The notes: generated from the sequence alone by a model not told the origin. A stretch of DNA of 64,000 nucleotides from Candidatus Shapirobacteria bacterium CG_4_10_14_0_8_um_filter_39_15 (GCA_002784465.1 PFLE01000011.1:3966-67965); one strand, 5' to 3'. Counted from the first letter of the stretch, positions 10,892 to 56,560 are shown. Program-made: numbers and translations.

Positions 10892-11278
10892 TTATTTTGT
10901 CATCCCAGATTTAATCTGGGATCTATACAAATTTCTCTCTTCTTCAAATTCTGTTCCTCTTTGGTAATCATCTTCCATCCTGATCGTATTGCCAACCTCC
11001 GGGGACGAGTGTTCCACGAGATCGCAATCGGTAATGGCGGTATAACGGTGTTTTTGCATCGGATTTATCTGATAACCTTTATCAGTTTCCATATCTATCT
11101 CCTTATCATCCAAAAGGAGTCTTGCTTGTCCCCGAATTAAAGTCAGGGTTTCCGTTTTCTGGTCGTGGTATTGCAGGCTGCATCTTTTTCCGGCTTCTAC
11201 ATGAAGAATTTTACCGGTATAAGGTAAATCAGGAGTGGTCAATAATATTTCGTAACCCCAGGGTTTTTCTATTTTCAT
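10892..11278 (-). CDS. cupin-domain protein (mannose-6-phosphate-isomerase-type cupin)
   Basis: WGYE...GKILHVEAGKRCSLQYHDQKTETLTLIRG is the cupin_2 pattern. Confidence 0.6.
   Translation of the reverse strand: MKIEKPWGYEILLTTPDLPYTGKILHVEAGKRCSLQYHDQKTETLTLIRGQARLLLDDKEIDMETDKGYQINPMQKHRYTAITDCDLVEHSSPEVGNTIRMEDDYQRGTEFEEERNLYRSQIKSGMTK
10899..10931. repeat. hairpin-family element H1 (GTCATCCCAGA-TTTAA-TCTGGGATCTATACAAA)
   Basis: Member of the GTCATyCC[stem-loop-stem']GGAATCTATAyAA family. It sits 8-40 nt upstream of the ppsA start codon and overlaps the last codons of the cupin ORF. Confidence 0.55.
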
Positions 11279-12048
11279 TTTATAATTTCCAGCAATCTGT
11301 CAACTAATTCTTCCCCGCCCAAATCCAATTTTCCCAAAGTAAAATAATCCGCTTCCAGTTCTTTAGGATCGGTGGAAACGCCAATACCGGCAACAGTCAC
11401 CATATCCTTATCGTTTAGTCCGTTGCCGATGGCCATGGTTTGATTAATATTCAGACCAAGATATTCTGTCAACTTGATTAAGGATGTGCCTTTGTTAAGA
11501 TTTTTAGGAGCAATATCGTAGGCCTCGCCATTCCACCAGCAATAAAACTCATTATTGGTATCATATTTTTTGACAATTTCCTCGATCTCTGGGACGGCTT
11601 TCCAACAATGAGGCGTAATTAAAAATTGCTTGGGCTCAAAACCGCGGATATCTTTATTGGTTTTTGCCAATTGTCTGATCGCTTCTTTCATTTGCTGGAT
11701 TTTATTTAATAATTCAGGGGTAAATTTTTCCTGCTGGATTACTTGGCCATCAATTAAAATAAATATTCCATTTTCTCCCTGCAAGCTGACATTTTCCCAA
11801 AGAAGTTTTCCATACATTCGTTCCAAATAAAGTAAACTTCGACCGCTGGAAAAAGTTAAATGAAATCTCTTTTTAAGAAGGATCATTTTATTTAAAAGAC
11901 TTTCAGAAAGTACGTGGGTTTTAACAGTCAAAGAATCTTCGGTTTCTTCAATTTCCGTGCCGCGTTCCACCGTTACGCCATCGCAGTCGAAACAAATAAT
12001 TTTAATATTCTTTAATTCCTCTGAAGTTAATTCGGATATTGGTTTCAT
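11275..12048 (-). CDS. HAD-superfamily IIB (Cof-like) sugar-phosphate phosphatase
   Basis: Motif I ICFDCDGV and motif IV GNGLNDKDM. The ORF-track start is TTG at 12054, and ATG at 12048 is the likelier start. Confidence 0.65.
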   Translation of the reverse strand: MKPISELTSEELKNIKIICFDCDGVTVERGTEIEETEDSLTVKTHVLSESLLNKMILLKKRFHLTFSSGRSLLYLERMYGKLLWENVSLQGENGIFILIDGQVIQQEKFTPELLNKIQQMKEAIRQLAKTNKDIRGFEPKQFLITPHCWKAVPEIEEIVKKYDTNNEFYCWWNGEAYDIAPKNLNKGTSLIKLTEYLGLNINQTMAIGNGLNDKDMVTVAGIGVSTDPKELEADYFTLGKLDLGGEELVDRLLEIIK

Positions 12049-12056
12049 AAACAATT

Positions 12057-12088
12057 GTCATTCCCGCAAAAGCGGGAATCTATATAAA
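12057..12088. repeat. hairpin-family element H2 (GTCATTCCCGC-AAAA-GCGGGAATCTATATAAA)
   Basis: Intergenic, between the stop of 12094..12774 and the HAD start. Confidence 0.55.
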
Positions 12089-12093
12089 TTATT

Positions 12094-12774
12094 TTATAGA
12101 CTAGCAACAAAAATATCAAGGTGGGAAAGCAGATTTAAGGCGTCATTGCCGGTTTTTTGATTGTAATCAATTTGCTGAAGTTCTTGATAGATTTTTTCCA
12201 GGTAATCAGGCATAAATAATCCTGCTTGCGCTTTTAATTTCGCTCCCTGCCAAGGAGCGCCTTTATAAAGATCTTCCTTGGCTAAAATCAACTGGCGAAT
12301 TTGCCGGGTCAACATAAAAAATACCAATTCCGGCGCTTCCGTTTTCTCAAGTTCTTTGAGAATCGTCAGCGGCTTAAGAGGATTGTTTGGTTTAATTGAA
12401 TCCAGAAACTTGAACAGCTGTTTGTCTAATTCAAAGGTTTCAATCTTCAATCCGTTGGGAATTGTTCTTCGGTCAACATTCTTTCCCTCCCACAAAATAA
12501 TTTCGTTATTAAATTCTTTTTTAAAAAGATACTCGGTAATTTTTTCTTTTCTTTGAGATTTTTGCGAAGTTAACAAATTTTCAACAACGATCAGTTTATC
12601 ATTGCCAAACATTGACGAAGAGCCCGTGGCCGACCTAATTTGTTCCAAAGAAACTTTAGTGCCGTCCAAATTAACAACTTCAATCTTTTTTTGTTGGGCA
12701 TTTCTAATTTTTAACGACAATGCCTGACGGCTGGTGATTAAATTTTCACCGCAAATTATGGAAATCTTATTCAT
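12094..12774 (-). CDS. putative DNA polymerase III delta subunit (short form)
   Basis: Delta-subunit-like N-terminus (ISIICGEN...LFGNDKLIVVEN), but only 226 aa, so this is a weak assignment. Confidence 0.4.
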   Translation of the reverse strand: MNKISIICGENLITSRQALSLKIRNAQQKKIEVVNLDGTKVSLEQIRSATGSSSMFGNDKLIVVENLLTSQKSQRKEKITEYLFKKEFNNEIILWEGKNVDRRTIPNGLKIETFELDKQLFKFLDSIKPNNPLKPLTILKELEKTEAPELVFFMLTRQIRQLILAKEDLYKGAPWQGAKLKAQAGLFMPDYLEKIYQELQQIDYNQKTGNDALNLLSHLDIFVASL

Positions 12775-13126
12775 ACAATTTCTTAAGCAAAATGTTTACC
12801 TTACTCATGTTTCTGATTAAATGGGAAACCAAAGCGCCGGAAAAGTTTTTGGGAATGTGCATCAGTTCGTGAATAAGGGTATACTGTTTATCTTTCTCGG
12901 ATAATCTGTCAAATTTTTCCGAGATAACTTCAATACAGTACGCGGGTTGACAACCGAGAGCGATGAGAAAGATCCTTGGAAGACCCCAGATGCGGGCACG
13001 GGCGCGGCTAGTTGAACCATGAGAACGAAAACAGAAAATACGGCGGTGATTAAGATAATCTAGACTAAGGATTTCAATAAGGTTTTTTACTTCCTTATCA
13101 ATATCGGGCGCGGGTTGCAATTCCAT
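12767..13126 (-). CDS. HExxH metal-dependent hydrolase, DUF45/YgjP-like (possibly truncated)
   Basis: ARIWGLPRIF ... LIHELMHIPKNFSGA resembles the COG1451 pattern RWGSC...HELxHL..NHS. 119 aa. Confidence 0.4.
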   Translation of the reverse strand: MELQPAPDIDKEVKNLIEILSLDYLNHRRIFCFRSHGSTSRARARIWGLPRIFLIALGCQPAYCIEVISEKFDRLSEKDKQYTLIHELMHIPKNFSGALVSHLIRNMSKVNILLKKLYE

Positions 13127-13129
13127 TGA

Positions 13130-13384
13130 TTATTCCTTTACCAAATAAACTTCATCGCCTTCTTTAACCGCCTGATCAACTTTCATTCCGACGGCATCTC
13201 CCTTTTTGGCCGATTCTATCTGCTTGTGTTCAACCTGCATTGAAGAAACCGTTTGGGTAAATTCATTGCCGTGACCGGAAATTCTAATTGTTTCTCCATC
13301 TTTCAATGTTGCCGACAATTCCAGTACCGCTACACCAATTTTATCGTAATAATGGGTAATTTTCCCGATTTTTACGTCTGCCAT
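13130..13384 (-). CDS. small hypothetical protein (EF-Tu domain-2-like beta-barrel?)
   Basis: 84-aa ORF in the operon with no diagnostic motif. Confidence 0.3.
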   Translation of the reverse strand: MADVKIGKITHYYDKIGVAVLELSATLKDGETIRISGHGNEFTQTVSSMQVEHKQIESAKKGDAVGMKVDQAVKEGDEVYLVKE

Positions 13385-13448
13385 TATTTCTCACCTCCCT
13401 TCGCAACACAGAGATCACTGAGAATTACACTAAAACACTGATTAATAT

Positions 13449-13685: not shown

Positions 13686-13688
13686 ATT

Positions 13689-14357: not shown

Positions 14358-14409
14358 GGCCCCATCGTCTAGTGGTCCAGGATGCGAGGTTTCCTGCCCG
14401 CAGTGCCAA
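14358..14409 (+). other. tRNA 5'-half-like fragment (acceptor GGCCCCA, Glu-like D-arm, aberrant 8-nt anticodon loop GTTTCCTG)
   Basis: Has no T-arm. Its acceptor strand is perfectly complementary to TGGGGTC at 14531-14537. Confidence 0.4.
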
Positions 14410-14568: not shown

Positions 14569-14847
14569 ATGTATTGGTTTGTCTATATAGTTGAGTGTAG
14601 TGATAGTTCTCTTTATACCGGCATTAGTAACGATGTAAATAAAAGAGTCTGGAAACATAATAATGGGTTAGGTGCTAAATCCATTAAGGGAAAATTACCA
14701 GTAAAACTCGTGTACATAGAAAGGCATAATAATATGCACGAGGCGGCAATTAGAGAAAGAGAAATTAAGGGGTGGAATAGATTTAAGAAACTAAGATTAA
14801 TTAACGAAATTCCTTATAAAGGGCTTAGTCCTGGGAATAAACGATGA
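14569..14847 (+). CDS. GIY-YIG nuclease-superfamily protein (YhbQ/UPF0213-like)
   Basis: WFVYIVECSDSSLYTGISNDVNKRVWKHNNGLGAKSIKGK...EAAIREREIKGW aligns to E. coli YhbQ. The ATG at 14569 is preferred to the ORF-track start at 14530. Confidence 0.75.
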   Translation: MYWFVYIVECSDSSLYTGISNDVNKRVWKHNNGLGAKSIKGKLPVKLVYIERHNNMHEAAIREREIKGWNRFKKLRLINEIPYKGLSPGNKR

Positions 14848-14953: not shown

Positions 14954-14956
14954 TAT

Positions 14957-14995
14957 CTACGTTCACACCTTTAAGGTGAACTACGTTCACACCTT
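14957..14995. repeat. REP-B element copy a (CTACGTTCACACCTTTAAGGTGAACTACGTTCACACC)
   Basis: Direct repeat of (C/T)TACGTTCACACC around a palindromic core CACCTTTAAGGTG. It lies immediately 3' of tRNA-Lys. Confidence 0.75.
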
Positions 14996-15008
14996 GGGAA
15001 TCGAATCT

Positions 15009-15721: not shown

Positions 15722-15754
15722 GTCATTCCGGTCATTGAGCCGGAATCTATACAA
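15722..15754. repeat. hairpin-family element H3 (GTCATTCCGGTC-ATTGA-GCCGGAATCTATACAA)
   Basis: Intergenic, about 35 nt upstream of the thermonuclease start. Confidence 0.55.
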
Positions 15755-22206: not shown

Positions 22207-22240
22207 GTCATTCCGGGCGAAGACCCGAAATCCATACAAA
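22207..22240. repeat. hairpin-family element H4, degenerate (GTCATTCCGGGC-GAAGA-CCCGAAATCCATACAAA)
   Basis: Intergenic, between the NUDIX gene stop and the small ORF 21813..22103. Confidence 0.45.
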
Positions 22241-23188: not shown

Positions 23189-23242
23189 AAGACTAAATGG
23201 AGTTTAAAGCAGTCGAAAGGAAAATGCAAAAAACATTCCCCT

Positions 23243-23255
23243 TCCGATGTGGAAA
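23243..23255. repeat. half-copy of the REP-A palindrome (TCCGATGTGGAAA)
   Basis: Matches the right arm of REP-A at 3941-3954. It lies in an accessory region. Confidence 0.4.
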
Positions 23256-23628: not shown

Positions 23629-23739
23629 GATTTTTGTTTAAATAAATTAATCTTTTCTCAACTTCCGGATATTTTATTTAAGTAATTTAACCCCTTGACA
23701 ACTTTCGTATTTCTTTCGTATAGTATATCTACAATTAAA

Positions 23740-25173
23740 ATGAAAATCAAGACCCTTACACCTAAACAAAAGAAAGTACTCGATTTTATAAACAAATTCA
23801 TCAAAAAGAACGGTTATTCTCCATCCTTGGAAGAAATGGCTAGTTACCTAAAATTGAATTCGGTCTCTACGGTTCATCAATTTATAGAAATCCTAAAAAA
23901 CAAGGGTTATATTAACAAGGAAGAAAATAAACCCCGATCAATTACCTCTGGATTTACCGAAATCCCCCTTTGTGGTTATATTGCAGCAGGCGAACCAATA
24001 GAGGCAATTTCTAATCCTCAACCGTTCAAGATTCCACAGGCTATCGTTAGTAAGACTGGCTTTTATTACGCTTTAAAAGTTAGAGGAAATAGTATGGTTG
24101 AAGACTGTATATATGATGGAGATACAATAATAATTAAACATCAAGATACCGCTGAAAATGGACAAAAAGTAGTGGCTCTAATTGACAATCTTGAAGTAAC
24201 TCTCAAAAAGATTTATAAAGAGAATGGGAAAATTAGATTACAACCGGCAAATCGAAACATGAATCCTCTCTTTGTCGATCCCTCAAGAGTAATTATTCAA
24301 GGAATAGTAATAGATATTCTTAAAAATAAGTCGATCGTTTCGGAGACGCCACTTATAGATCATACCGCACGACATATAAACACTAACCCCAAAGATCTAG
24401 GTGAATTATTGAATCAGGTAATAGAAGGTGACTGTCTTGAGGTGATGAACAGTATACCAAATAAATCCATCGATATGATATTATGTGATCTCCCTTATGG
24501 AAATACTCAAAACAACTGGGATAGTGTTATTCCGTTAGATAAACTTTGGTCGCACTATGAACGAGTTATTAAAAATAACGGCGTAATCGCTTTAACCTCT
24601 CAAGGATTATTTACTGCCAAATTAATTTTGAGTAATCCAAAACTGTTTAAATATAAAATCGTTTGGATTAAATCTAAATCTACCAACTTCTTAAATGCCA
24701 AAAAACAACCATTAAGACGACATGAAGATATTTGTATTTTCTACAAAAACCAACCGTCTTATAATCCTCAAATGTCACCCGGGGAACCTTATAATAAAGG
24801 TTTCAGAAAAAATCAACTTACGGGGAGTTATGGTGATTTTAATTCAGTCGAGGTTAAAAGTGACGGCTTACGTTATCCTACAGATGTCGTTTACTACAAA
24901 ACCGCAGAAAGCGAAGGAAAAGTATTTCACCCGACCCAAAAACCAGTAGAACTGGGAAGGTATTTGATTAAAACGTTCACAAAAACAGGCGATATTGTTT
25001 TAGACAATACTTGTGGCAGTGGTAGTTTCCTTGTTGCAGCAATCTTGGAAAAAAGACGGTTTATTGGGATCGAAAAAAATCAAGAAACATTCTTACATAA
25101 AAAACAGAGGGTTAACTATATCGAAATATGCAAAGAAAGAATAGAAAAAGCTAGAAAAGAACTAAAGAAATAA
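23740..25173 (+). CDS. fusion protein: LexA-like wHTH/S24 autopeptidase (N-terminal) plus beta-class DNA N6A/N4C methyltransferase (C-terminal)
   Basis: One uninterrupted ORF (track 23695..25173; ATG at 23740 preferred). Residues 1-200 are a paralogue of lexA: CGYIAAGEPIEA cleavage motif, GNSM Ser, TLKKIY Lys. Residues ~215-477 carry DLPYG (motif IV), then HPTQKPVEL, then NTCGSGSFLVAA (motif I), which is the PF01555-type order. Confidence 0.8.
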   Translation: MKIKTLTPKQKKVLDFINKFIKKNGYSPSLEEMASYLKLNSVSTVHQFIEILKNKGYINKEENKPRSITSGFTEIPLCGYIAAGEPIEAISNPQPFKIPQAIVSKTGFYYALKVRGNSMVEDCIYDGDTIIIKHQDTAENGQKVVALIDNLEVTLKKIYKENGKIRLQPANRNMNPLFVDPSRVIIQGIVIDILKNKSIVSETPLIDHTARHINTNPKDLGELLNQVIEGDCLEVMNSIPNKSIDMILCDLPYGNTQNNWDSVIPLDKLWSHYERVIKNNGVIALTSQGLFTAKLILSNPKLFKYKIVWIKSKSTNFLNAKKQPLRRHEDICIFYKNQPSYNPQMSPGEPYNKGFRKNQLTGSYGDFNSVEVKSDGLRYPTDVVYYKTAESEGKVFHPTQKPVELGRYLIKTFTKTGDIVLDNTCGSGSFLVAAILEKRRFIGIEKNQETFLHKKQRVNYIEICKERIEKARKELKK

Positions 25174-27673: not shown

Positions 27674-28018
27674 TCACAAAGGGGAAATGTTTTTAATCAC
27701 TCGTGTTTCATTGTAATCGATGCAGACTGCGTCTATTCGAAGTTGTTCAGGAAGTTCAGGATGAAGTAATTTATAATAGTCCCCCACTCTGGCTATTTTT
27801 CTGATTTTCCAGGGAGTAATTGCTTCTTCCGGCAGACCATACCAAGAATTTGATCTTGTTTTAACTTCAACAAAGATTAAAACATTGTCATCTAAAGCAA
27901 TAATATCAATTTCCCCGATTTTACAGGAAAAATTTCTTTGAAGAATTTTGTATCCTTGTTTTCGAAGAATGTCAACGGCTAAACTTTCACCCCTTCCTCC
28001 TAAATCTTTCGAACTCAT
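27674..28018 (-). CDS. yraN: YraN-family endonuclease (UPF0102)
   Basis: GESLAVDILRKQGYKILQRNFSCKIGEIDIIALDDNVLIFVEVKTR is the UPF0102 pattern. Confidence 0.8.
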   Translation of the reverse strand: MSSKDLGGRGESLAVDILRKQGYKILQRNFSCKIGEIDIIALDDNVLIFVEVKTRSNSWYGLPEEAITPWKIRKIARVGDYYKLLHPELPEQLRIDAVCIDYNETRVIKNISPL

Positions 28019-28314
28019 TTATTCAATTTTTTAATTTCTTTTTTAGTTTGGGTTCTTAAATAATAAAGTTTGGCTCTTTTTACTTTAGAAGTTTTCTTGA
28101 CTTCGACTTTTTGAAGCAAAGGTGAAGCAACCGGAAAAACTCTTTCGATTCCGACTCCGGCCGCCCCAATCCGCCGAACCGTAAAGGATTGATTTTCCAA
28201 GCTGCCCCGAATGGCCATGAGCATCCCTTCAAAATAATTTCCTTCACCAAAATAAACGCGGATTAAATCACCGACTTTTGCTTTTATTTCTTTGAAATTT
28301 AATTGATTTGCCAT
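28015..28314 (-). CDS. rplS: 50S ribosomal protein L19
   Basis: GDLIRVYFGEG...GMLMAIRGSL...FTVRRIGAAGVGIERVFPV. Confidence 0.9.
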   Translation of the reverse strand: MANQLNFKEIKAKVGDLIRVYFGEGNYFEGMLMAIRGSLENQSFTVRRIGAAGVGIERVFPVASPLLQKVEVKKTSKVKRAKLYYLRTQTKKEIKKLNK

Positions 28315-28420
28315 TTGAAGTATTTTAGCAGATTTTAGAAGAAAATAAAAGTGCAGTACCGGAAGAATATCAAAACAACAAGAAAGTTGTACTTTTCTTA
28401 TTATTGAACCCCTCCGGTAC

Positions 28421-30403
28421 TTAGAAGTTCACAACTGGACCGTCGTATGTAATCTTACCCATATTGATGATCACAACGCGAGAAGCAGTCTTTGCCACCT
28501 GCTGGTCATGGGTAACGATTACGACGGCGATTCCTTTTTGTATCAGTGCTTGTACTAAATCTAGAACTTTGGCAATTCCGTCTGCATCAAGCCCGATGGT
28601 TGGTTCGTCTAGAATCAGGACTTGAATTCCCGCGGTTGAGGCAGAAATCGCGAGCATTTCTACTTCACTTGGATGAAGATCCAATGGACAGCTTAGTGGT
28701 TCCAAACCGGTCCAATCAATTCCTTCCGTAACGAACGCTTCAATTCTACCCGAATCCCAATGTTGTATTTTAGGACTGAACGAAAGTTCGTCATTCACTG
28801 TCATTGAGATAGTTTGAAGAGAGGCATTTTGAAAGACGTAGCCGACTCCTCCTCTCGCCTTGACATTTCCCTTGATTGGCTTAATTGCACCGGCAAGAGT
28901 CAGCATCGCAGTTGTTTTTCCGGAACCATTAGGTCCCATAACAACCACAAGTTCGCCTTCTCTTAAGTCTAGCGAGATGCCGTTAAGAATTGCTGTTCCG
29001 TCTAGCTCCACATAGACATTGTCCATTTTAGCGATAATCTCTCCCGGAATAACAGACATTGGTGGCCGGAATTCGCGTAGAAGAGAGTATCGGGAAAGCA
29101 TCTCTTCGGTGAAGAACTCTCCGGGAAGAACATCCTGCGCAATTGTTCCTTTTTCTAGGGTAACTACCCGTGTAACAAAAGGTTTTATTTCACTCCAAAA
29201 GGGATCAGCGATTATCACGGTGCAAGGATTTTGAACGAGGAAATCCTTAAGAGCACTCAAGAATTCCTGCCGTCCTTGCGGATCAAGTTCCTGCATTGGG
29301 GAATCAAAAAGAAGAATTTTTGCTGTAGAAGCGAGAATTCCGGCAAGAACAAGCCGAACTTGCTGTCCTCCCGAAAGTTTAGTTATCTCCTTTTCCCACA
29401 AATCCCCGATTCCCATTATCTCAAGGGTTCTTCGTGCACTGATTTCGTTTTCGGCGAGGAAAGTTATCTCCTGCCCAACAGTGAGTCCGTGAAACGAAGC
29501 AAAGGGATCCGGGGATATATAACGGACTGATCCGGAAAGTTTTGCTAGGGACGTATTCATCGTATTCATCCCTGATGCAGTAACGCTTCCCATGAATTCG
29601 CCCATAATTGAACTGATAATACCCCCTACTACCCTAAGGAGCGTCGTTTTTCCAGATCCCGACCTCCCTGCTAGGTAGATAAATTCTCCACCATCAACCC
29701 TTAGGTTAATTCCCGTCAATACATCCGGAAGGAGGGGCGAGTAGCGAACATGTACGTCATTCAGAATAAGATCCCCATTTCCTTCAGGCTTTGTTCGTGT
29801 ATGCGATAAGCTGGCGGCTGCTCCTTTCTGAGTGTTGTCTATCACTCGAGGAATTATCGCCATTGCAAGTGGAATGAGATTCCTAATACTGGCGATTGGC
29901 GAATCCCACTTCAGCCCACGAATGATAAGCGATTGCGTGAGAGCCACAAACTCTCTTTTGATAATCTGGACCCCTCGAAGAATTGTCAAAACCCAAGGTT
30001 CTGCAGGTTTTATCCAGGATAATCCTTCGTACATCTCTGGAAGAGAGGTAGAAAGAAGCCAGGCAAACGAGATAAGCATCGCCCCGATGATTCTTGTCCC
30101 CATCACCAATCCTCTCTCGAAACCTGCTTGGTTCACTGTGAAAACTAACCATTGCCAGCCGCCATGACCTCTAGCGGAGAAAATCACGTTATAGAAAAAC
30201 ATCATCGCCCCGGTAATGGGAGCAGCTAAAACCAACTTCCAATTCCGATTTTCGCCCACAAGATAAATTACAATTCCAACAAGAAGGAAAAGGATTGCAC
30301 CCGGAATGTTGTTAATGAAAATGTAGAGACAACCGCTGGTGAAAACGACTACCAGCCTCACTCTTGGTGATAGAAAAGACAAACCTCTCTTCCTCGTCTT
30401 CAT
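28421..30403 (-). CDS. fused ECF-transporter T component (CbiQ/EcfT) plus two ABC ATPase domains (EcfA/EcfA')
   Basis: N-terminal multi-TM EcfT-like region, then Walker A GRSGSGKTT and signature LSGGQQ, then a second Walker A GPNGSGKTT. GC is far above the genome background. Confidence 0.75.
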   Translation of the reverse strand: MKTRKRGLSFLSPRVRLVVVFTSGCLYIFINNIPGAILFLLVGIVIYLVGENRNWKLVLAAPITGAMMFFYNVIFSARGHGGWQWLVFTVNQAGFERGLVMGTRIIGAMLISFAWLLSTSLPEMYEGLSWIKPAEPWVLTILRGVQIIKREFVALTQSLIIRGLKWDSPIASIRNLIPLAMAIIPRVIDNTQKGAAASLSHTRTKPEGNGDLILNDVHVRYSPLLPDVLTGINLRVDGGEFIYLAGRSGSGKTTLLRVVGGIISSIMGEFMGSVTASGMNTMNTSLAKLSGSVRYISPDPFASFHGLTVGQEITFLAENEISARRTLEIMGIGDLWEKEITKLSGGQQVRLVLAGILASTAKILLFDSPMQELDPQGRQEFLSALKDFLVQNPCTVIIADPFWSEIKPFVTRVVTLEKGTIAQDVLPGEFFTEEMLSRYSLLREFRPPMSVIPGEIIAKMDNVYVELDGTAILNGISLDLREGELVVVMGPNGSGKTTAMLTLAGAIKPIKGNVKARGGVGYVFQNASLQTISMTVNDELSFSPKIQHWDSGRIEAFVTEGIDWTGLEPLSCPLDLHPSEVEMLAISASTAGIQVLILDEPTIGLDADGIAKVLDLVQALIQKGIAVVIVTHDQQVAKTASRVVIINMGKITYDGPVVNF

Positions 30404-30484
30404 ATCTGCCTCCTAGAATACGTGGGACCGGACAGGCCAAATTGGGAACTGTCCGATCCCACTGACTAATGGAACCCAACAATG

Positions 30485-31270
30485 TTATTCGGCAATGCCG
30501 GCCTGGCGCAGGCGAAGGGTATATAGGGGTAAGAGGAACAACCCCAAGACGGCGGAGACCGTATCCCCCACAAACCAGCCGACACCAGGATCGATTAAGG
30601 CTGCCTCGATTGGTTTGCCACCCACGTAGGCTGCGAAGGCACCGATCAGCGCACTGACTCCACAGGCAACGACGGCAATGTCCACCGCGAGAACAAAGTG
30701 ATCCATGTTCAGGTTTCTGCCAACGTTCCCCAGGATGACGGGCACGCCCACCACCAGAACGATAAGGGGCAGAGCCAGACCCCAAGGGGATGGCAAAGCC
30801 AGAACAATATTGACCAGACCCGCCGCCATGACCGCCAGAGCGAGCACGACGACGCGAACGGCCCCGTTCAGCACGTCATACGGATCTTTGCAGCCGAACG
30901 TAGGATCAAGTCTTAACATTCGGAACAGAAGGGCAGGCAGCATTGCGTTGGCAAACCCGCCGGCAATGGGATTCTGGATGATGTCCGTAATACCCCATCC
31001 GCCATACGCGAAAATACCGGCTGTATACGCACCGAGTCCGCCTGCCACCGCTCCGAGCCATGGTCCAAGCCAGATTCCCGCGACCAACTGCAAGGCCGCA
31101 GGTAACCAGATGAAGCTCGCCCCCTTCACAGAGGGTGACGAACCAACGGTTATCATGACCCAACCGATCGCGGCGATGGCCACTGCCAGAAAGCCGGCGA
31201 AGGTGTAGCGTAGAACCGGGTCACGTCGTGCAACGTACGTCTTAGAACTTGCCATTGGAATTTCCTCCAT
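30485..31270 (-). CDS. integral membrane protein, putative ECF S-component (substrate capture subunit)
   Basis: 261 aa rich in Ala/Gly/Val/Leu with multiple TM helices. It lies between the ECF T/A gene and a 5-FCL-family gene. Other ORFs overlapping this GC-rich stretch are spurious. Confidence 0.45.
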   Translation of the reverse strand: MEEIPMASSKTYVARRDPVLRYTFAGFLAVAIAAIGWVMITVGSSPSVKGASFIWLPAALQLVAGIWLGPWLGAVAGGLGAYTAGIFAYGGWGITDIIQNPIAGGFANAMLPALLFRMLRLDPTFGCKDPYDVLNGAVRVVVLALAVMAAGLVNIVLALPSPWGLALPLIVLVVGVPVILGNVGRNLNMDHFVLAVDIAVVACGVSALIGAFAAYVGGKPIEAALIDPGVGWFVGDTVSAVLGLFLLPLYTLRLRQAGIAE

Positions 31271-31284
31271 TTTACTAACTTTTT

Positions 31285-32055
31285 TTACAGCTGAGAAGAA
31301 AGCCTGGTCGGCATACCTACCACCTCCTCCTGCATCGCCTGAAGCTCCCGAAGCGGAGGGATTGACCCCAACATTCCTGGCTGGAGACTATCCCAAACCA
31401 CCCCAAGAGTGGGTTTGTGCGGCTCGTCGACCTTGATCATCCTTCTCGGAGTGCAAATCAGATCACAAGCCGTGTCGAATGGATCGGCGGAGAATTGCTC
31501 GGTGACCACCTGGCAGTCATGAACAACTGCGACTACCGGTGTTTTGGCACTGACGACGCCGATTGAATAGAACATGGCCCATTCAAGATCGAAATAGCCA
31601 TGCCCTTTACCAATACGAATCCCTCCGATTGTTACTGCCCCTGTTCCGGTCACTAACAAGTCAATTTTGCCGAATATGCTTTTGATGCTTTGGAGTGATA
31701 TGATAGCACCTTCGTTTTCCATGCCATCCAGGGTAGCGGCATAAAGGTACCGGCTTTTTGGGATACCAGGACCGAGAAGAACAAACCCCCTCCGAATTCC
31801 ATATGTAGAAACAATGATCGTTTTTTCTTGCCATAAAGCATGGTAGCGCAACCTTTCCAAACAATTATCCGGGGTGATGAAGACAGTATCTGCCTGTCTC
31901 CAAAAATCGCTCCTTATTAACCGACCCAGGGCTTGACCGCTTCCTACAAAATCCGCGATAAATTCACCCAGATCCATGTCGAATCGGCTATCGGGACGAG
32001 CAACCCCCTTCCTTAACTTCTCAAAAACTGCTTGCCTGACTTCATTCTTATCCAT
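31285..32055 (-). CDS. 5-formyltetrahydrofolate cyclo-ligase-family (MTHFS-like fold) protein
   Basis: IGKGHGYFDLEW matches the GxGxGYYD motif, and ITPDNCLERLR is N-terminal-like. 256 aa. Confidence 0.5.
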   Translation of the reverse strand: MDKNEVRQAVFEKLRKGVARPDSRFDMDLGEFIADFVGSGQALGRLIRSDFWRQADTVFITPDNCLERLRYHALWQEKTIIVSTYGIRRGFVLLGPGIPKSRYLYAATLDGMENEGAIISLQSIKSIFGKIDLLVTGTGAVTIGGIRIGKGHGYFDLEWAMFYSIGVVSAKTPVVAVVHDCQVVTEQFSADPFDTACDLICTPRRMIKVDEPHKPTLGVVWDSLQPGMLGSIPPLRELQAMQEEVVGMPTRLSSQL

Positions 32056-40171: not shown

Positions 40172-41548
40172 TTAATTCTTTAACTTTTCTACCAGAATAT
40201 TTCTCACTAAATTCGGGCCAGCCTGACCTTTGGTCAATCTGGCAACTTGTCCAATAAGATATTCTAAAACCGGTGTTTTTCCGCCTTTATAATCCGCTAC
40301 CGGCTTAGGATTGTCAGCTAGTACTTGTTCTATCATCTTTTTCAGATTAGATTCTGTAAGAGAGATTGCGGATTTTTTAGTGGCCAATAACTTGATGATT
40401 TGATCCGGATCCAAGGTTTCTGAATCCACCTTTTTATTAATTATGGCGTTAGCAATTTCCAAAGGTTCCAGACGATCAGATTGTCCCAGTTTAACGCATT
40501 TTTCAAAATATTCCGCTTTTTCTTTTGTTTCGGTGAGAATAATAGCGTTTGTTTCAGTAAGTCCAAGCTCTTTTATGTATCGTTTTATCTTTGTATCAGG
40601 TAATTCTATTTTTTGAATTTCGAATTTCGAATTTCGAATTTCCGTTTCAGTCCACTGAAACGGAGGGATATCCGGTTCCGGAAAATACCGATAATCTTCG
40701 GCCTCTTCTTTTGTTCTTTGCAAAAAAGTCTTCTGCTTGACTTCATCCCAGCCCCTGGTTGTTTTGTTACCAGATTGTTTTTCTTGCCCTGTTTTTTCAA
40801 ATTCCTCCAATTGCCGTTGAATTTCATAATCAATCGCTTTTTGAGCGAATTTGAATGAGTTAATATTCTTAATCTCAACCAGAGGTGTATACACCATCTC
40901 GCCTTCCTGCTCTCCTGCCTTCTCGCACTCCAAATTCACGGTTGGTTCGCATCTCATTTGTCCCTTTTCCATATCCGCATCCGATATTCCCAAATAGCGG
41001 ATAATTTGCTGGAGTTTTTGTAAATACTCTTTTACTTGTTCTGTTGAAGTAAAGTCAGGTTCGGTAACAATTTCTACCAGCGGTACTCCGCTTCGGTTAA
41101 AATCAATCAAGGTCGCGTTTTCTCCATGTATTAATTTTGCCGTATCTTCTTCTAAATGTACTCTTCTAATTCTCACAATTTTGTCATTGCGAGGAGCCGA
41201 AGGCGACGTGGCAATCTCTTTAATGACAAGAGAACCGTTAATTGCCAGAGGCATATCATATTGAGAAATCTGGTACCCTTTTGGCAAATCAGGGTAAAAG
41301 TAATTTTTCCGGTCAAATTTTGAGATTTCTGGAATCTGGCACCCTAAAGCCAACCCCAGAAGAATCGTCCATTCAATTGCCTTTTGATTGGGGACTGGCA
41401 AAGCCCCGGGTAATCCTAAACAAACCGGGCAAGTGTGGGAGTTTGGTTCAGTTCCAAAATATTCGGCCGAACATGGGCAAAACATTTTCGAAGAAGTTTT
41501 TAATTCAACATGAACTTCTAAACCGATAATTGTTTTAAAATTGATCAT
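40172..41548 (-). CDS. gatB: Asp-tRNA(Asn)/Glu-tRNA(Gln) amidotransferase subunit B
   Basis: MINFKTIIGLEVHVEL...CPCS...CPVCLGLPGALP. Contains the in-frame GAATTTC x3 repeat at 40615-40636. Confidence 0.9.
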   Translation of the reverse strand: MINFKTIIGLEVHVELKTSSKMFCPCSAEYFGTEPNSHTCPVCLGLPGALPVPNQKAIEWTILLGLALGCQIPEISKFDRKNYFYPDLPKGYQISQYDMPLAINGSLVIKEIATSPSAPRNDKIVRIRRVHLEEDTAKLIHGENATLIDFNRSGVPLVEIVTEPDFTSTEQVKEYLQKLQQIIRYLGISDADMEKGQMRCEPTVNLECEKAGEQEGEMVYTPLVEIKNINSFKFAQKAIDYEIQRQLEEFEKTGQEKQSGNKTTRGWDEVKQKTFLQRTKEEAEDYRYFPEPDIPPFQWTETEIRNSKFEIQKIELPDTKIKRYIKELGLTETNAIILTETKEKAEYFEKCVKLGQSDRLEPLEIANAIINKKVDSETLDPDQIIKLLATKKSAISLTESNLKKMIEQVLADNPKPVADYKGGKTPVLEYLIGQVARLTKGQAGPNLVRNILVEKLKN

Positions 41549-45985: not shown

Positions 45986-46018
45986 GTCATTCCAGGCTTG
46001 ACCTGGAATCTATATAAT
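45986..46018. repeat. hairpin-family element H5 (GTCATTCCAGGC-TTGA-CCTGGAATCTATATAATAA)
   Basis: Intergenic, about 30 nt upstream of the lemA start, just after the polX stop. Confidence 0.55.
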
Positions 46019-53991: not shown

Positions 53992-54068
53992 ATATAAGGA
54001 TTTTATCAGAATATTCTCATATTTGCCTCTTGACAATATTATTCTACATAAATTAAGTTATATTTGTA

Positions 54069-56531
54069 ATGAAAATTATACTAAAATCTTTTCTTCTATT
54101 TTTCATCATTTTACTTTTTAATTACCATAATTGTTTTGCCCTAACTCTGCTAGAAGATAATTTTAGTGGCGTTAGTCAAATGGATGGAAAACCCGTGAGT
54201 TGGGAAGAGCATTTAGGAGATATCGGTTCTTGGAATATCATTAATGGAGAATATATTGGAAAAGTCACAAAAGATACTTCCCAGGATTTATCTACATATT
54301 CTATAGCGGGTAACAATTCCTGGGATAACTATCGCTTTACTGTACGAATTAAAGGTGATATTGGTCTAGATAAAGTTATTCTTTTTAGATATCACTCTTT
54401 AAATGAAACTTATGCAATAAAGCTGATAAGCTCTTGGTGGGATACTTACGGAGATAAAATTACCCTGCTCAAAAATGATCTAACACAGTGGTGGGGAGCA
54501 AGTGCTGATTACGTTAATAGTCTTGGAATTTGGTACACATTATCTGTAGAGGTAAATAACAATAACATAAAGGTTTTTATCAATAACTCCACAACCCCCA
54601 TATTGGATTACACCGACACTAAAACTGAAACTAACAATCCTATTTTGAATGGAAAAATAGGATTAATGGCTTGGCCTGGATTTTATAACAATTATGGCAG
54701 CGTAACGCAGGTAAGTTTTGATGATGTCCTGGTAACTACCCTTGAATCTCCCTTACCCACCCTTACACCAACGCCTGCACCCTTACCCCCAATAGTAATC
54801 CTGCCCGGCTTGGGTTCCAGTTGGAATTCTGATGCCTTGCTTTTGGGACAGAATAAACCCCAAAGCGAATGGAAAGCAATGTTTGGTTTTACCCTTTATG
54901 AACCCTTAATCCAAACCCTTAAAAACGCCGGTTATGAGGATAATGGTCCTAACCAAAATCTTTTTCTTTTCTTTTACGACTGGACAAAACCGATTTCCCA
55001 AATCTCCGATGATTTAAAAATTTTTATCGCCAATGTTGTCAAGCCGCCGCCTAATAATAAAGTTGATTTAATTGGCCATAGTCTTGGAGGAATGGTAGGC
55101 AGAACTTATTTGCAGAATAATCCAGGCAATCCGGTTGATAAATTAATAACTTTAAGCTCTCCCCATCAAGGTGCGCCTTCGGCTTATTATGCCTGGGAAG
55201 GCGGTCAATTGGATAAACTTTTGGGGCCTTTTGAAAGAATCGGCGCCGGTCTTTTTCTCTATGGCAGAAATTTGACGCAAAATTCTCCATCGCAAGCTAA
55301 AGAAATTCAAACACTTTTTCCCGTCATTAAGGACTTACTGCCAACTTTTAATTATCTTAAGAAAGATCATTCGGAAGTCAATTTGGATCAAATGTCTCAA
55401 AAAAATATTTGGCTTATTAATCTAAATTCTTTCCTTCCGGATTATCTCACTTTACACCTCAATGCTTTTGTTGGCAATATTCCCAACAGCGTGATTGAAT
55501 GGATTCCGGTTACCTATCAGACCTGGCTTGATAAAATTTTAGGTCTTTGGCCTGATGGCAAACCAACTGACAATAATATTCTTGGGGCCGGGGATAAAAT
55601 TGCCTTGGCAAAAAGCAGCCAACTGGGAGGAGCAAATGTCTATGAAATTAATGGCGCCGATCACAGCACGATTGTTTCCGGTCCGGATTCGCTGCAAAAA
55701 GTCTTGGAAGTTCTCGGTCTGCCTTCCCAGCAATTTAACCCTTCGACTCCGCTCAGGGCAAGCAATTATTTAGTTTTTTACTTGGGTTCTCCGGCGAATA
55801 TCACTGGTATTTTTGATGGTAATCATCAACCGATTGGTAGTTTTGAAGGTAAAATGGGAATTGTTCCCGATCCTCTACCGGGCAAATATCAGGTGCAAAT
55901 TACCGGAACAGGAACGGGAAGTTATCGCTTATTTGTTGGGCAAATTAATCAAAATGGTCAGGATTTTTGGACCGATATTTCCGGAATGATAACTTTAAAT
56001 CAGGTCAAGTCCCATTTCCTTTCTTTCTCCTCTAATAATCCTCTAACTTTCCTTTATCCTGACGATTATTCGAATAGCGTTAAAACCAAACTGAATGACC
56101 TCAATATCAGCAGTACATACAAAACCGCTTTCCTTCTACTTTTTAATAAACAAAAATACGAGGACGCGATTAAATTTCTTTATGGTGTTCGTATCTTAAC
56201 CAAAGATTTTCCCACTAAAAATAAAATTCAGGAAATTATTGACCAATGCGAATTGCTTTATCTGTCGCAAAATTTAAACAAGCCTCTATATAATTCCGTT
56301 AAATTAGCTTCGGAATTAAAATCCAGCCGGTCGGTTTTTAATCAAATGGAAAGTTTGTTAAAAATAAAAGGTGCGCAGGGAAAAACGATTCCCGAATACG
56401 GTCAGCTTTATTTGCTGGCTCAAGATAAACTGAATCAAGCTTTGACAGCTAAATCTTATGAATCTCATATAAATGCCCTTGGCTCAAAAATGCTTTCCAC
56501 TGAACTAAATTATCTTCTTTCCAAAAACTAA
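54069..56531 (+). CDS. large secreted protein with an N-terminal lectin/LamG-like region and an alpha/beta-hydrolase (lipase/PGAP1-like) core
   Basis: Signal peptide and nucleophile elbow VDLIGHSLGGMVGRTYL (GxSxG). 820 aa. Confidence 0.5.
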   Translation: MKIILKSFLLFFIILLFNYHNCFALTLLEDNFSGVSQMDGKPVSWEEHLGDIGSWNIINGEYIGKVTKDTSQDLSTYSIAGNNSWDNYRFTVRIKGDIGLDKVILFRYHSLNETYAIKLISSWWDTYGDKITLLKNDLTQWWGASADYVNSLGIWYTLSVEVNNNNIKVFINNSTTPILDYTDTKTETNNPILNGKIGLMAWPGFYNNYGSVTQVSFDDVLVTTLESPLPTLTPTPAPLPPIVILPGLGSSWNSDALLLGQNKPQSEWKAMFGFTLYEPLIQTLKNAGYEDNGPNQNLFLFFYDWTKPISQISDDLKIFIANVVKPPPNNKVDLIGHSLGGMVGRTYLQNNPGNPVDKLITLSSPHQGAPSAYYAWEGGQLDKLLGPFERIGAGLFLYGRNLTQNSPSQAKEIQTLFPVIKDLLPTFNYLKKDHSEVNLDQMSQKNIWLINLNSFLPDYLTLHLNAFVGNIPNSVIEWIPVTYQTWLDKILGLWPDGKPTDNNILGAGDKIALAKSSQLGGANVYEINGADHSTIVSGPDSLQKVLEVLGLPSQQFNPSTPLRASNYLVFYLGSPANITGIFDGNHQPIGSFEGKMGIVPDPLPGKYQVQITGTGTGSYRLFVGQINQNGQDFWTDISGMITLNQVKSHFLSFSSNNPLTFLYPDDYSNSVKTKLNDLNISSTYKTAFLLLFNKQKYEDAIKFLYGVRILTKDFPTKNKIQEIIDQCELLYLSQNLNKPLYNSVKLASELKSSRSVFNQMESLLKIKGAQGKTIPEYGQLYLLAQDKLNQALTAKSYESHINALGSKMLSTELNYLLSKN

Positions 56532-56533
56532 TC

Positions 56534-56560
56534 GTCATCCTGAACGAAGTGAAGGATCTT
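56534..56560. repeat. hairpin-family element H6, divergent (GTCATCCTGAAC-GAAGTGAAGGATCTTC), followed by a T-run
   Basis: Starts 3 nt after the stop of 54069..56531. It may act as that gene's terminator. Confidence 0.4.

What the first reader, a model, noticed from the sequence alone, without database searches (positions are those of the whole stretch)
10899..56560. Second family of ~33-nt intergenic hairpins with fixed flanks and compensatory stem changes (GTCATTCC-[stem/loop/stem']-GGAATCTATAyAA)
There are six copies: 10899, 12057, 15722, 22207, 45986 and a divergent one at 56534.

All share the outer flanks GTCATyCC and GGAATCTATA(C/T)AA(A). The inner stems differ but stay complementary: CCAGA/TCTGG, CGC/GCG, GGTC/GCC(G), AGGC/CCTG, GGGC/CCCG. 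The loops are 4-5 nt.

In simple copied repeats the stem would be identical between copies. Flank conservation with stem covariation instead argues for selection on a structure, either an RNA hairpin or a protein-recognised cruciform.

Five copies lie between tandem minus-strand genes, 10-40 nt upstream of start codons (ppsA, HAD, nuclease, lemA). The sixth is a terminator-like element after a plus-strand gene.

The TTCC...GGAA architecture echoes REP-A (TTCC-ACATC-G-GATGT-GGAA), so these may be relatives recognised by RAYT-1.
Basis: seen in the sequence. Interest (0 to 1): 0.6.

Follow-up and report, generated by a model that had tools for sequence, protein, structure and literature searches.

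The report
NTS/SRM-type single-strand-nuclease hairpin repeats
The five hairpins are real. They belong to a repeat family described in 2025 (NTS/SRM hairpins, the single-stranded-DNA target sites of small GIY-YIG "Ssn" nucleases), seen here in a tiny-genome candidate-phyla bacterium, where copies have recently been inserted between genes.

Summary
Five copies of GTC-[ATTCC-xxx-loop-xxx-GGAAT]-CTATAYAA lie at 10899, 12057, 15722, 22207 and 45986, against 0 expected by chance. A covariance model finds exactly these five. The "fixed flanks" ATTCC/GGAAT are the outer stem, and the inner 3-4 pairs covary.

They are not a new class and not RAYT REPs. They match the Neisseria NTS/dRS3 element and the "Ssn-related motifs" (SRM) of Chenal et al. 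2025. Those hairpins are bound and cut, only as ssDNA, by small GIY-YIG nucleases. Copy 2 matches the NTS consensus at 25 of 28 positions and is an exact dRS3.

The same motif occurs in at least 120 genomes of many phyla. In 8 of those 120 loci an Ssn-type GIY-YIG gene is present, directly adjacent in at least five. A related Shapirobacteria MAG has the full SRM-ssn-SRM arrangement.

Orientation relative to genes across phyla is 32:30, which argues against an RNA role. Close relatives have empty or differently filled sites, so the copies are recent insertions.

Open point: the window encodes only a UPF0213-like GIY-YIG (14569-14847), not an Ssn-type one. The cognate nuclease is therefore not identified.

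The parts
10899..10930 (+). SRM/NTS-type hairpin, copy 1: GTC ATCCCAGAT-tta-ATCTGGGAT CTATACAA. It lies inside the last 13 codons of the cupin ORF (tail NLYRSQIKSGMTK*), 7 nt from the ppsA start codon.
   Evidence: model 20.8 bits; DNA fold -8 kcal/mol, z -3.7. The cupin tail is unique among 120 homologues. The site is empty in L211, L525 and L526.
12057..12087 (+). SRM/NTS-type hairpin, copy 2: GTC ATTCCCGC-aaaa-GCGGGAAT CTATATAA. It is an exact dRS3 (ATTCCC-N8-GGGAAT), matches the NTS consensus at 25 of 28 positions, and fills the 45-nt spacer between the holA-like and HAD genes.
   Evidence: It is the only copy that matches the published SRM degenerate pattern. Model 47.8 bits; DNA fold -9 kcal/mol, z -4.8.
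15722..15754 (+). SRM/NTS-type hairpin, copy 3: GTC ATTCCGGT-cattga-GCCGGAAT CTATACAA. Its tail supplies the TAG stop (15747-15749) of a 69-aa ORF. It lies 35 nt upstream of the SNase-like gene and 875 nt from the GIY-YIG gene.
   Evidence: model 32.2 bits; DNA fold z -2.5.
22207..22239 (+). SRM/NTS-type hairpin, copy 4, degenerate: GTC ATTCCGGG-cgaaga-CCCGAAAT CCATACAA. It has a C/A mismatch in the outer stem and a T-to-C change in the tail. It begins 9 nt after the NUDIX stop codon.
   Evidence: model 14.6 bits, E 0.04; DNA fold z -0.35.
45986..46017 (+). SRM/NTS-type hairpin, copy 5: GTC ATTCCAGG-cttga-CCTGGAAT CTATATAA. It begins 4 nt after the PolX stop codon and lies 31 nt before the LemA start. 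The CTTGA loop is also the commonest 5-nt loop in the copies from other phyla.
   Evidence: model 30.1 bits; DNA fold z -5.1.
56534..56558 (+). It begins 2 nt after the stop of the + strand gene 54069-56531.
   Evidence: Not found by model R1. Near-identical 25-mers occur in 74 viral-contig stretches. The same type flanks an Ssn-type GIY-YIG gene in L524.
41183..41216 (+). Third SRM-like subfamily: GTCATTGCGAGGAGCCGAAGGCGACGTGGCAATC. It is inserted in frame inside gatB (minus strand) and encodes EIATSPSAPRND in a variable loop.
   Evidence: The type is widespread. The same type sits at the cupin-ppsA junction of L212.
14569..14847 (+). The only GIY-YIG nuclease gene in the window (92 aa, single domain), between tRNA-Glu and tRNA-Lys. 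It is a candidate partner, but of a UPF0213-like subfamily rather than the Ssn type.
   Evidence: Pfam PF01541, E 3e-17. Nearest solved structure is UPF0213 BH0048. 35% identity to an element-adjacent Ssn-type protein. HMM scores 140.8 (own subfamily) against 62.5 (Ssn type).
3246..3914 (+). RAYT-like Y1 transposase with its own flanking palindromes, REP-A (3187-3205 and 3935-3953).

Best explanation
**What they are.** The five elements are members of the NTS/SRM family of oriented hairpin repeats (dRS3-like core ATTCC(C)...(G)GGAAT). The host is a Candidatus Shapirobacteria (candidate phyla radiation) genome.

**How the family works, as established in Neisseria.**
- When the strand carrying GTC-hairpin-C becomes single-stranded, it folds into the hairpin.
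- A small single-domain GIY-YIG nuclease of the Ssn family binds the hairpin. Binding needs the palindrome and the C just 3' of it.
- The nuclease nicks the ssDNA a few nucleotides upstream. Cleavage needs the GTC just 5' of the palindrome.
- dsDNA, RNA and the reverse strand are not substrates.

**What is shown here.**
- Sequence and structure identity with that family.
- Covariation of the stem.
- Lack of transcription-linked polarity.
- Physical linkage of the same motif to Ssn-type GIY-YIG genes in other genomes, including another Shapirobacteria MAG.
- Recent gain of copies at gene junctions, where they overwrite C-terminal tails or supply stop codons.

**What is inferred.**
- That a GIY-YIG nuclease of this organism still recognises them.
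- That the nuclease, or the SRM-ssn-SRM unit, drives their spread.
- That in this compact genome the copies are largely tolerated passengers filling intergenic spacers, rather than regulators.
For: **Identity with the known family**
- Copy 2 equals the NTS consensus CGTCATTCCCGCGMAVGCGGGAATCYRG at 25 of 28 positions, is an exact dRS3, and matches the published SRM pattern.
- All five keep GTC immediately 5' and C immediately 3' of the palindrome. These are the positions that mutagenesis showed to control cleavage and binding (PMC11893778).

**Distribution**
- GTCATTCC-N8-16-GGAATCTATA occurs in at least 120 genome stretches from many bacterial phyla, including 11 candidate-phyla loci.

**Linkage to the nuclease**
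- 8 of those 120 loci hold an Ssn-type small GIY-YIG ORF. In at least five it lies directly next to the element, and in one it is about 800 nt away.
- In L524 (Shapirobacteria MAG GCA_043817235.1) an Ssn-type gene is flanked on each side by three SRM variants.

**Structure under selection**
- Covariation holds across phyla.

**Not an RNA signal**
- Orientation relative to co-directional genes is 32 sense to 30 antisense.
- The copies give no promoter or terminator signal.

**Insertion polymorphism**
- The cupin-ppsA junction is filled in the window, filled by a different SRM subfamily in L212, and empty in L211, L525 and L526.
- The HAD-cupin junction is filled in L212 and empty in the window.

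**Local clustering**
- A GIY-YIG gene lies among four of the five copies, at -3.6, -2.5, +0.9 and +7.4 kb.
Against: **No Ssn-type gene found.** None is present in the window or in about 16 kb of extra flank.

**The local GIY-YIG is a different subfamily.**
- It is UPF0213-like.
- It is flanked by tRNA genes, not by SRMs.
- Among 80 loci carrying relatives of it, only 5 have GTCAT hairpins within 6 kb, one of which is the window's own sequence, and only 2 have them adjacent.

**Imperfect match to published definitions.**
- Only copy 2 fits the published degenerate SRM pattern.
- The CTATAYAA tail differs from the usual YRG tail and is rare in an unbiased sample.

**Not demonstrated here.**
- No biochemical data exist for this organism.
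- The mechanism of spread of SRMs is not established anywhere.

**Unexplained strand bias.** All eight SRM-like elements in about 80 kb lie on one DNA strand. The model does not predict this, and it is not seen across phyla.
Confidence: 0.8

Rival explanations
1. REP elements mobilised by the RAYT (Y1 HUH transposase) encoded at 3246-3914. The RAYT would bind the hairpin in ssDNA and cut at a flanking tetranucleotide.
For: - A RAYT-like gene is present (Pfam Y1_Tnp), and a second one lies just beyond the window.
- Both REP-A and this family have TTCC...GGAA arms.
- REPs are also intergenic ssDNA hairpins.
Against: - Each RAYT is flanked by its own distinct palindrome: REP-A TTCCACATCSGATGTGGAA, and REP-B CTACGTTCCCACTTGACAAGTGGGAAC. 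Neither has the GTC or C-TATA flanks.
- None of the five copies flanks a RAYT.
- In other phyla the identical motif sits next to GIY-YIG genes.
- The REP hallmark GTAG/CTAC tetranucleotide is absent.
Confidence: 0.05
2. An RNA-level intercistronic element. Transcribed as 5'-UUGUAUAGAUUCC...GGAAUGAC-3' within operons, the hairpin would protect the upstream mRNA from 3' exonucleases, or act as a processing or attenuation site. This could coexist with the DNA-level role.
For: - All five copies lie between co-directional genes, in one orientation relative to them. They start 0-9 nt after a stop codon, or within the last codons of the upstream ORF, and end 7-103 nt before the next start.
- The stems would form equally well in RNA.
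- E. coli REPs have such a secondary effect (established knowledge).
Against: - Across 62 co-directional gene pairs in other genomes, orientation is 32 sense to 30 antisense.
- No U-run follows the hairpin in either orientation, and there are no terminator or promoter hits at the copies.
- Rfam has no matching family.
- Syntenic relatives manage without any element at the same junctions.
- SsnA does not bind the RNA form (PMC11893778).
Confidence: 0.1
3. A palindromic operator for a dimeric dsDNA-binding transcription factor (half-sites ATTCC / GGAAT).
For: The arms are invariant and the copies lie upstream of genes.
Against: - The inner stem covaries, which an operator does not require.
- The distance between the arms varies (inner stem plus loop is 10-13 nt in the window, 8-16 nt in other phyla).
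- The flanks are asymmetric.
- The same sequence occurs in many phyla with no fixed position relative to genes.
- One copy lies inside an ORF's 3' end.
Confidence: 0.02
4. Integration targets for an IS110/Piv-type recombinase or filamentous phage, as dRS3 is in Neisseria. This is a use made of the repeats rather than their origin.
For: dRS3 is a documented phage integration target (cited in PMC11893778), and copy 2 is an exact dRS3.
Against: No IS110-family or phage integrase gene was seen next to any copy in the window. The only transposase-like genes are two RAYTs and an IS1595 fragment.
Confidence: 0.03

Closest known systems
Neisseria Transformation Sequence (NTS) / Ssn-related motifs (SRM), targets of the Ssn GIY-YIG ssDNA nucleases (Chenal et al., Nat Commun 2025, PMC11893778)
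   Same: - Oriented element: GTC, then the palindrome ATTCC(C)-inner stem-loop-(G)GGAAT, then C.
- About 30 nt, multi-copy, almost always outside genes.
- Hairpin conserved through covariation.
- The identical motif lies next to small GIY-YIG genes in other genomes.
- Copy 2 matches the NTS consensus at 25 of 28 positions.
   Different: - The host is a candidate-phyla (Shapirobacteria) MAG, a group not mentioned in the main text of that paper.
- The tail is CTATAYAA instead of YRG.
- Inner stems and loops are more varied, so only 1 of 5 copies fits the published degenerate pattern.
- No Ssn-type (cd10448-like) gene lies in the 64-kb window, only a UPF0213-like GIY-YIG.
- No functional data.
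dRS3 repeats / Neisseria intergenic mosaic elements
   Same: The 20-bp core ATTCCC-N8-GGGAAT. Copy 2 is an exact match.
   Different: - The other four copies have ATTCC or ATCCC arms and different spacing.
- There are no RS blocks between pairs of copies.
- The copies are single and fill short operon spacers.
REP/REPIN elements with RAYT transposases
   Same: They work alike: short intergenic ssDNA hairpins with an asymmetric flank, recognised by a dedicated nuclease whose gene is flanked by the repeats, and spreading within a genome.
   Different: - The enzyme class differs (HUH Y1 transposase against GIY-YIG).
- The conserved flank differs (GTAG against GTC...C).
- The RAYTs here have their own REPs.
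Rickettsia palindromic elements (RPE)
   Same: Hairpin repeats that can sit in frame inside protein-coding genes. Here this is the gatB loop insert and the cupin C-terminal tail.
   Different: RPEs are 100-150 bp and unrelated in sequence. Here the inserts are 30-40 nt, and most copies are intergenic.

Membership tests
NTS/SRM hairpin repeats (Ssn-related motifs) | Conserved GTC(W)(Y) immediately 5' of the palindrome, which gives the element its orientation and is needed for cleavage | tested here: met
   All five copies have GTC directly before the first paired base. The requirement is described in PMC11893778.
NTS/SRM hairpin repeats (Ssn-related motifs) | Hairpin-forming semi-palindrome of about 20-50 nt | tested here: met
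   Stems are 8-9 bp. DNA folds have z -2.5 to -5.1 for four copies, and copy 4 is degenerate. Covariation is seen across phyla.
NTS/SRM hairpin repeats (Ssn-related motifs) | C immediately 3' of the palindrome (the critical position for binding), followed by Y-N-B | tested here: met
   5 of 5 have ...AT-C-TAT or C-CAT.
NTS/SRM hairpin repeats (Ssn-related motifs) | Match to the published degenerate SRM pattern HGTCWYN(0-2)YYVSBRHN(0-5)WNVSBRGN(0-2)RNCYNB | tested here: inconclusive
   Only copy 2 matches; shuffles give a mean of 0.085 matches. The other four fail on inner-stem or loop letters. A covariance model built from NTS-type copies of other phyla finds all five.
NTS/SRM hairpin repeats (Ssn-related motifs) | Many copies per genome, rarely inside genes | tested here: met
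   There are 5 copies in 64 kb, plus 3 of related subfamilies in about 80 kb. Four are intergenic, one is in the last codons of an ORF, and one related copy is in frame in gatB.
NTS/SRM hairpin repeats (Ssn-related motifs) | Spatial association with a gene for a small single-domain GIY-YIG nuclease of the Ssn clade (cd10448) | tested here: inconclusive
   **Window**
- A 92-aa GIY-YIG gene lies within 0.9-3.6 kb of three copies. It is UPF0213-like, not Ssn-type.
- CDD assignment could not be run.

**Elsewhere**
- 8 of 120 loci with the motif hold an Ssn-type ORF, directly adjacent in at least five.
- L524 shows the SRM-ssn-SRM arrangement in the same class of bacteria.
NTS/SRM hairpin repeats (Ssn-related motifs) | Bound and cleaved by the nuclease only as ssDNA and only in the forward orientation | not testable with these tools
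   Needs purified protein and oligonucleotides.
dRS3 | ATTCCC-N8-GGGAAT | tested here: inconclusive
   Copy 2 is an exact match (ATTCCC GCAAAAGC GGGAAT). The other four are not.
REP / RAYT system | The RAYT gene is flanked by copies of the repeat it mobilises | tested here: not met
   RAYT-1 is flanked by REP-A and RAYT-2 by REP-B, neither of this family.
REP / RAYT system | Conserved GTAG-type tetranucleotide at the 5' end of the palindrome | tested here: not met
   The flank is GTC-AT. A CTAC tetranucleotide is seen only in REP-B and in the repeat after tRNA-Lys.
Intrinsic terminator | G+C-rich hairpin followed by a U-run, in the direction of transcription | tested here: not met
   No terminator-like hit at any of the five copies on either strand. 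Only the variant at 56534 is followed by a T-run.

The most novel reading that the evidence does not exclude
In this candidate-phyla lineage the NTS/SRM hairpins may be served not by a canonical Ssn (cd10448) enzyme but by the UPF0213-like GIY-YIG encoded among them (14569-14847).

- That would extend sequence-specific ssDNA nuclease activity to a second, very widespread and uncharacterised GIY-YIG subfamily (YhbQ/UPF0213).
- The hairpins would then be actively mobile units that land at stop codons and in tolerant protein loops, rewriting C-terminal tails. The cupin tail, the HAD stop codon and the gatB loop are the examples seen here.
Probability: 0.15. Interest if true: 0.6.

Novelty: new member of a known kind. 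Interest (0 to 1): 0.35.

Why it matters
**For the scan.** A striking "covarying intergenic hairpin" that looks like a structured RNA is in fact a DNA-level repeat of a family described in 2025. It should not be pursued as a new riboregulator or as a RAYT REP.

**For the Ssn/SRM field.**
- The family is present in candidate-phyla bacteria with roughly 1-Mb genomes.
- Filled and empty orthologous sites between close relatives give direct comparative evidence that these hairpins are gained at gene junctions. The original paper only hypothesised this.
- Related subfamilies can sit in frame inside essential genes such as gatB, and can supply stop codons or C-terminal tails.

**For biotechnology.** If the local UPF0213-like GIY-YIG turned out to be the partner, the repertoire of site-specific ssDNA nucleases would widen. 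That repertoire has biotechnological interest.

Tried and rejected
- **Rfam, whole window:** only tRNAs were found.
- **Promoter or terminator reading:** no hits at the copies, and the tail word is not enriched elsewhere.
- **RAYT link:** rejected, because each RAYT has its own REP.
- **Published SRM pattern as a detector:** too strict here, matching 1 of 5 copies.
- **Relaxed 'GTC + hairpin + C' scan:** high background of about 10 hits per shuffle. It was useful only for spotting the variants at 41183 and 56534.
- **Strand-bias idea** (forward strand kept off the ssDNA-exposed template): all 8 elements in about 80 kb are on the + strand, which has negative GC skew. Across 105 loci of other genomes the skew on the forward strand is not negative (mean +0.012, p 0.08), so I make no general claim.
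- **Association of the window-type GIY-YIG with SRMs:** tested on 80 metagenome loci. It is weak, with 5 loci holding hairpins within 6 kb (one being the window's own sequence) and 2 adjacent, and is not significant.
- **Search for an Ssn-type gene in the source genome:** only about 80 kb was reachable and none was found. One look-up failed on ORF boundaries.
- **Viral-contig loci for the two variant subfamilies:** they contain no GIY-YIG ORFs, so their link to Ssn rests on L524 alone.
- **Shared gene neighbours (gatB, LemA) between the window and the cross-phylum loci:** consistent with chance overall.
- **Supplementary data of the Ssn paper:** not held.

Full report

Yes. Reading the six coordinates and searching GTCATYC-N8-30-ATCYATAYAA gives exactly five matches, all on the + strand. 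They lie at 10899, 12057, 15722, 22207 and 45986. No match appears in any of 100 dinucleotide shuffles.

Neither half of the motif is enriched on its own beyond these copies. The tail is therefore not a general promoter word.

What is truly unpaired and conserved is GTC on the 5' side and C-TATAYAA on the 3' side. The inner pairs differ between copies and remain complementary.

Folded as DNA, copies 1, 2, 3 and 5 are far more stable than shuffles (z -2.5 to -5.1). Copy 4 has a C/A mismatch and looks decayed.

A covariance model built from relatives in other phyla recovers the same five and nothing else.

The 'sixth copy' at 56534 (GTCATCCTGAACGAAGTGAAGGATC) is not found by that model and belongs to a different subfamily.

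**2. Context**

The window is from Candidatus Shapirobacteria bacterium CG08_land_8_20_14_0_20_39_18, a member of the candidate phyla radiation.

All five copies sit between co-directional minus-strand genes in very short spacers.

| Copy | Position of tail end | Distance from GTC end to next start codon |
|---|---|---|
| 1 | Inside the last 13 codons of the cupin ORF | 7 nt |
| 2 | 6 nt after the holA-like stop codon | 8 nt |
| 3 | Tail supplies the TAG stop of a 69-aa ORF | 35 nt |
| 4 | 9 nt after the NUDIX stop codon | 103 nt |
| 5 | 4 nt after the PolX stop codon | 31 nt |

None of the copies scores as promoter-like or terminator-like on either strand. Rfam finds only tRNAs in the window.

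**3. What it is**

The hosts include Ignavibacteria, Bacteroidota, Planctomycetota, Desulfobacterota, Rickettsiales, Spirochaetes, Chloroflexi, many candidate-phyla groups and others. A 30-nt hairpin conserved at sequence level across phyla points to a common reader protein or a promiscuous mobile unit.

*The published family.* A full-text search for the sequence found Chenal et al. 2025 (PMC11893778). They report the following.
- The Neisseria dRS3 repeat (ATTCCC-N8-GGGAAT) is the core of a 28-nt oriented element, NTS: CGTCATTCCCGCGMAVGCGGGAATCYRG.
- NTS-like 'Ssn-related motifs' (SRM) occur across bacteria, next to genes for small single-domain GIY-YIG proteins (SsnA, CDD cd10448).
- SsnA binds and cuts the element only as ssDNA and only in the forward orientation.
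- Binding depends on the palindrome and most of all on the C just after it. Cleavage depends on the three bases just before it.

*Match to the window.* Copy 2 equals the NTS consensus at 25 of 28 positions, is an exact dRS3, and matches the published SRM pattern. All five copies keep the GTC and the C.

*Independent test of the linkage.* In 8 of my 120 cross-phylum loci, an ORF of the type YILASKRNGTLYIGVT...GFTKKY...REKQLKKWNR is present. In at least five loci it lies directly next to the element, and in one it is about 800 nt away.

*Same class of bacteria.* In L524, from another Shapirobacteria MAG, such a gene is flanked by three SRM variants on each side. One of them is GTCATCCTGAGCGTAGCCGAAGGATC.

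**4. Structure selection**

Of the 120 foreign copies, 92 have at least three Watson-Crick pairs directly inside the fixed arms; chance would give about 2%.

On 32 distinct sequences with a 4-nt loop:
- 96.9% of cells pair.
- There are 26 double-sided changes, against 6.3 +/- 2.2 in shuffles (0 of 500 shuffles reach this).
- Pairing collapses when partners are slid by 1-3 columns.

**5. DNA or RNA?**

The element has a clear polarity. Yet between co-directional genes in other genomes it is sense in 32 loci and antisense in 30. An RNA signal should follow transcription, so a reader of single-stranded DNA fits better. The paper also reports that the RNA form is not bound.

In the window, all five copies, the two variant copies, and an eighth element just past the window's end are on the + strand. 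That is 8 of 8, two-sided p about 0.008. This strand also has negative GC skew throughout.

I tested whether this reflects avoidance of the ssDNA-exposed strand in general. It does not: across 105 loci the skew on the forward strand is slightly positive, p 0.08. The local bias stays unexplained.

**6. Are the copies mobile?**

*Cupin-ppsA junction.*
- The cupin homologue family has conserved C-terminal tails (...PNRGWxx or ...K[IV]Y[LT]G).
- The window's tail, NLYRSQIKSGMTK, is unique and is encoded by copy 1.
- L211 (82% identical cupin) has the ancestral tail and a 1-nt spacer to ppsA. This is an empty site.
- L212 (also 82% identical) carries a different SRM subfamily at the same junction, the reverse complement of GTCATTGCGAGAAGCTTCAGCGACGAAGCAATC.

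*HAD-cupin junction.* L212 has an ATTCC/CTATATACAA copy here whose tail supplies the HAD stop codon. In the window these two genes overlap by ATGA, with no element.

*More distant relatives.* The syntenic loci L525 and L526 have no copy anywhere in 20 kb and 12.5 kb.

The copies are therefore recent, lineage-specific insertions at gene ends. The paper proposed an IS-like history for NTS-ssnA-NTS but gave no such site comparisons in its main text.

**7. The partner nuclease here**

*What the window encodes.*
- The window has one GIY-YIG gene (14569-14847, 92 aa, Pfam E 3e-17), lying between tRNA-Glu and tRNA-Lys.
- Four of the five copies lie within 8 kb of it. No further copy is found in about 16 kb of added flank. 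This is a post-hoc observation.

*Why it may not be the partner.*
- Its nearest solved relatives are UPF0213 proteins.
- It scores 140.8 bits on a profile of its own candidate-phyla subfamily, against 62.5 on a profile of the element-adjacent Ssn-type proteins.
- It is 35% identical to one of those Ssn-type proteins.
- Among 80 metagenome loci with relatives of it (505 kb), only five carry GTCAT hairpins, one of them being the window's own sequence. Only two have them next to the gene.
- Shapirobacteria can carry a separate Ssn-type paralogue with the classical flanking repeats (L524).

The more likely situation is that the cognate enzyme is encoded outside the roughly 80 kb I could reach, or has been lost. 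The local gene remains a minority candidate.

**8. RAYT hypothesis**

- RAYT-1 (3246-3914; Pfam Y1_Tnp) is bracketed by REP-A at 3187 and 3935. A third REP-A-like site lies at 23236.
- A second RAYT beyond the window's end is bracketed by REP-B.
- Neither REP has the GTC or C-TATA flanks, and no SRM copy flanks a RAYT.
- The shared TTCC/GGAA is a superficial resemblance.

**9. Verdict**

The finding is a correct and careful observation of a real, non-random, structure-constrained repeat. It belongs to a family that is already described, with a known mechanism in Neisseria. I rate it a new member of a known kind and score interest at 0.35.

The modest added value is threefold:
- presence in a candidate-phyla genome;
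- filled and empty sites showing recent insertion;
- in-frame or tail-rewriting insertions.

What stays open is the identity of the nuclease in this organism and the one-strand bias.

Noticed in passing
window 41183-41216 (+), inside gatB 40172-41548 (-): - An SRM-like hairpin of another subfamily (GTCATTGCGAGGAGCCGAAGGCGACGTGGCAATC) sits in frame in a variable loop of GatB and encodes EIATSPSAPRND.
- That segment of the alignment is 43 aa here, against 34 or 37 aa in most of 120 homologues.
- Homologues P0120, P0142 and P0154 carry 'VIA[SR]..KQS ... ARND' peptides at the same loop. These look like independent insertions of the same element type.
   Followed up: partly
window 56534-56558 (+): - The variant hairpin GTCATCCTGAACGAAGTGAAGGATC has tandem G.A mismatches.
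- It begins 2 nt after the stop of gene 54069-56531 and is followed by a T-run.
- Next comes a perfect TTGACA-N17-TATAAT promoter, at about 56568-56602.
- The same type flanks an Ssn-type GIY-YIG gene in L524.
   Followed up: partly
L210 7028-7071 (-), equivalent to about 500 nt beyond the window's end, + strand: - An eighth SRM-like element, GTCATTCTGGA-[20-nt loop]-TCCAGAATCTATG, lies between a second RAYT gene and ileS.
- With it, all eight SRM-like elements in about 80 kb lie on the same DNA strand, the one with negative GC skew.
- No such bias is seen across phyla.
   Followed up: partly
window 3187-3205, 3935-3953, 23236-23254; L210 6262-6288 and 6981-7005: There are two RAYT-like Y1 transposase genes, each bracketed by its own palindrome. 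REP-A is TTCCACATCSGATGTGGAA and REP-B is CTACGTTCCCACTTGACAAGTGGGAAC. This compact genome therefore carries at least two REP/RAYT systems besides the SRM families.
   Followed up: partly
window 14956-15005: Directly after tRNA-Lys, CTACGTTCACACCTT occurs twice, and the first copy forms GTTCACACCTT/AAGGTGAAC. It resembles REP-B, including the CTAC tetranucleotide.
   Followed up: no
window 14358-14408: A tRNA-like 5' fragment (GGCCCCATCGTCTAGTGGTCCAGGATGCGAGG...) lies just upstream of tRNA-Glu. The GIY-YIG gene is wedged between tRNA-Glu and tRNA-Lys. A relative in L168 is likewise followed by a tRNA and then two SRMs, which suggests the GIY-YIG gene is itself an insertion at a tRNA cluster.
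   Followed up: no
window 23695-25173 (+): An ORF of about 480 aa combines LexA DNA-binding and S24 peptidase domains with an N6/N4 DNA methyltransferase domain, according to precomputed Pfam hits on the identical metagenome gene. This is an unusual fusion. A second, ordinary LexA-like gene lies at 1839-2459.
   Followed up: no
window 28001-32000: G+C is 0.48 here, against 0.34-0.42 in the rest of the window. This may be a foreign segment, and it contains several overlapping long ORFs on both strands.
   Followed up: no
L524 1660-2260 and 9240-9350: A Shapirobacteria MAG has dense mosaics of three or more SRM subfamilies in both orientations around an Ssn-type GIY-YIG gene and next to the ribosomal protein L10/L12 operon. 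The arrangement resembles Neisseria NIME or E. coli BIME arrays.
   Followed up: partly
cross-phylum loci L013, L064, L065, L079: The same element with identical flanks of at least 12-14 nt on each side (ACTCCAAAATTC...GAATCAACCACTTA) appears in a Bathyarchaeota MAG. Near-identical flanks appear in an Oceanospirillum MAG from the same study and in a Chromatiales MAG. This points to a larger shared mobile unit or to bin contamination.
   Followed up: no
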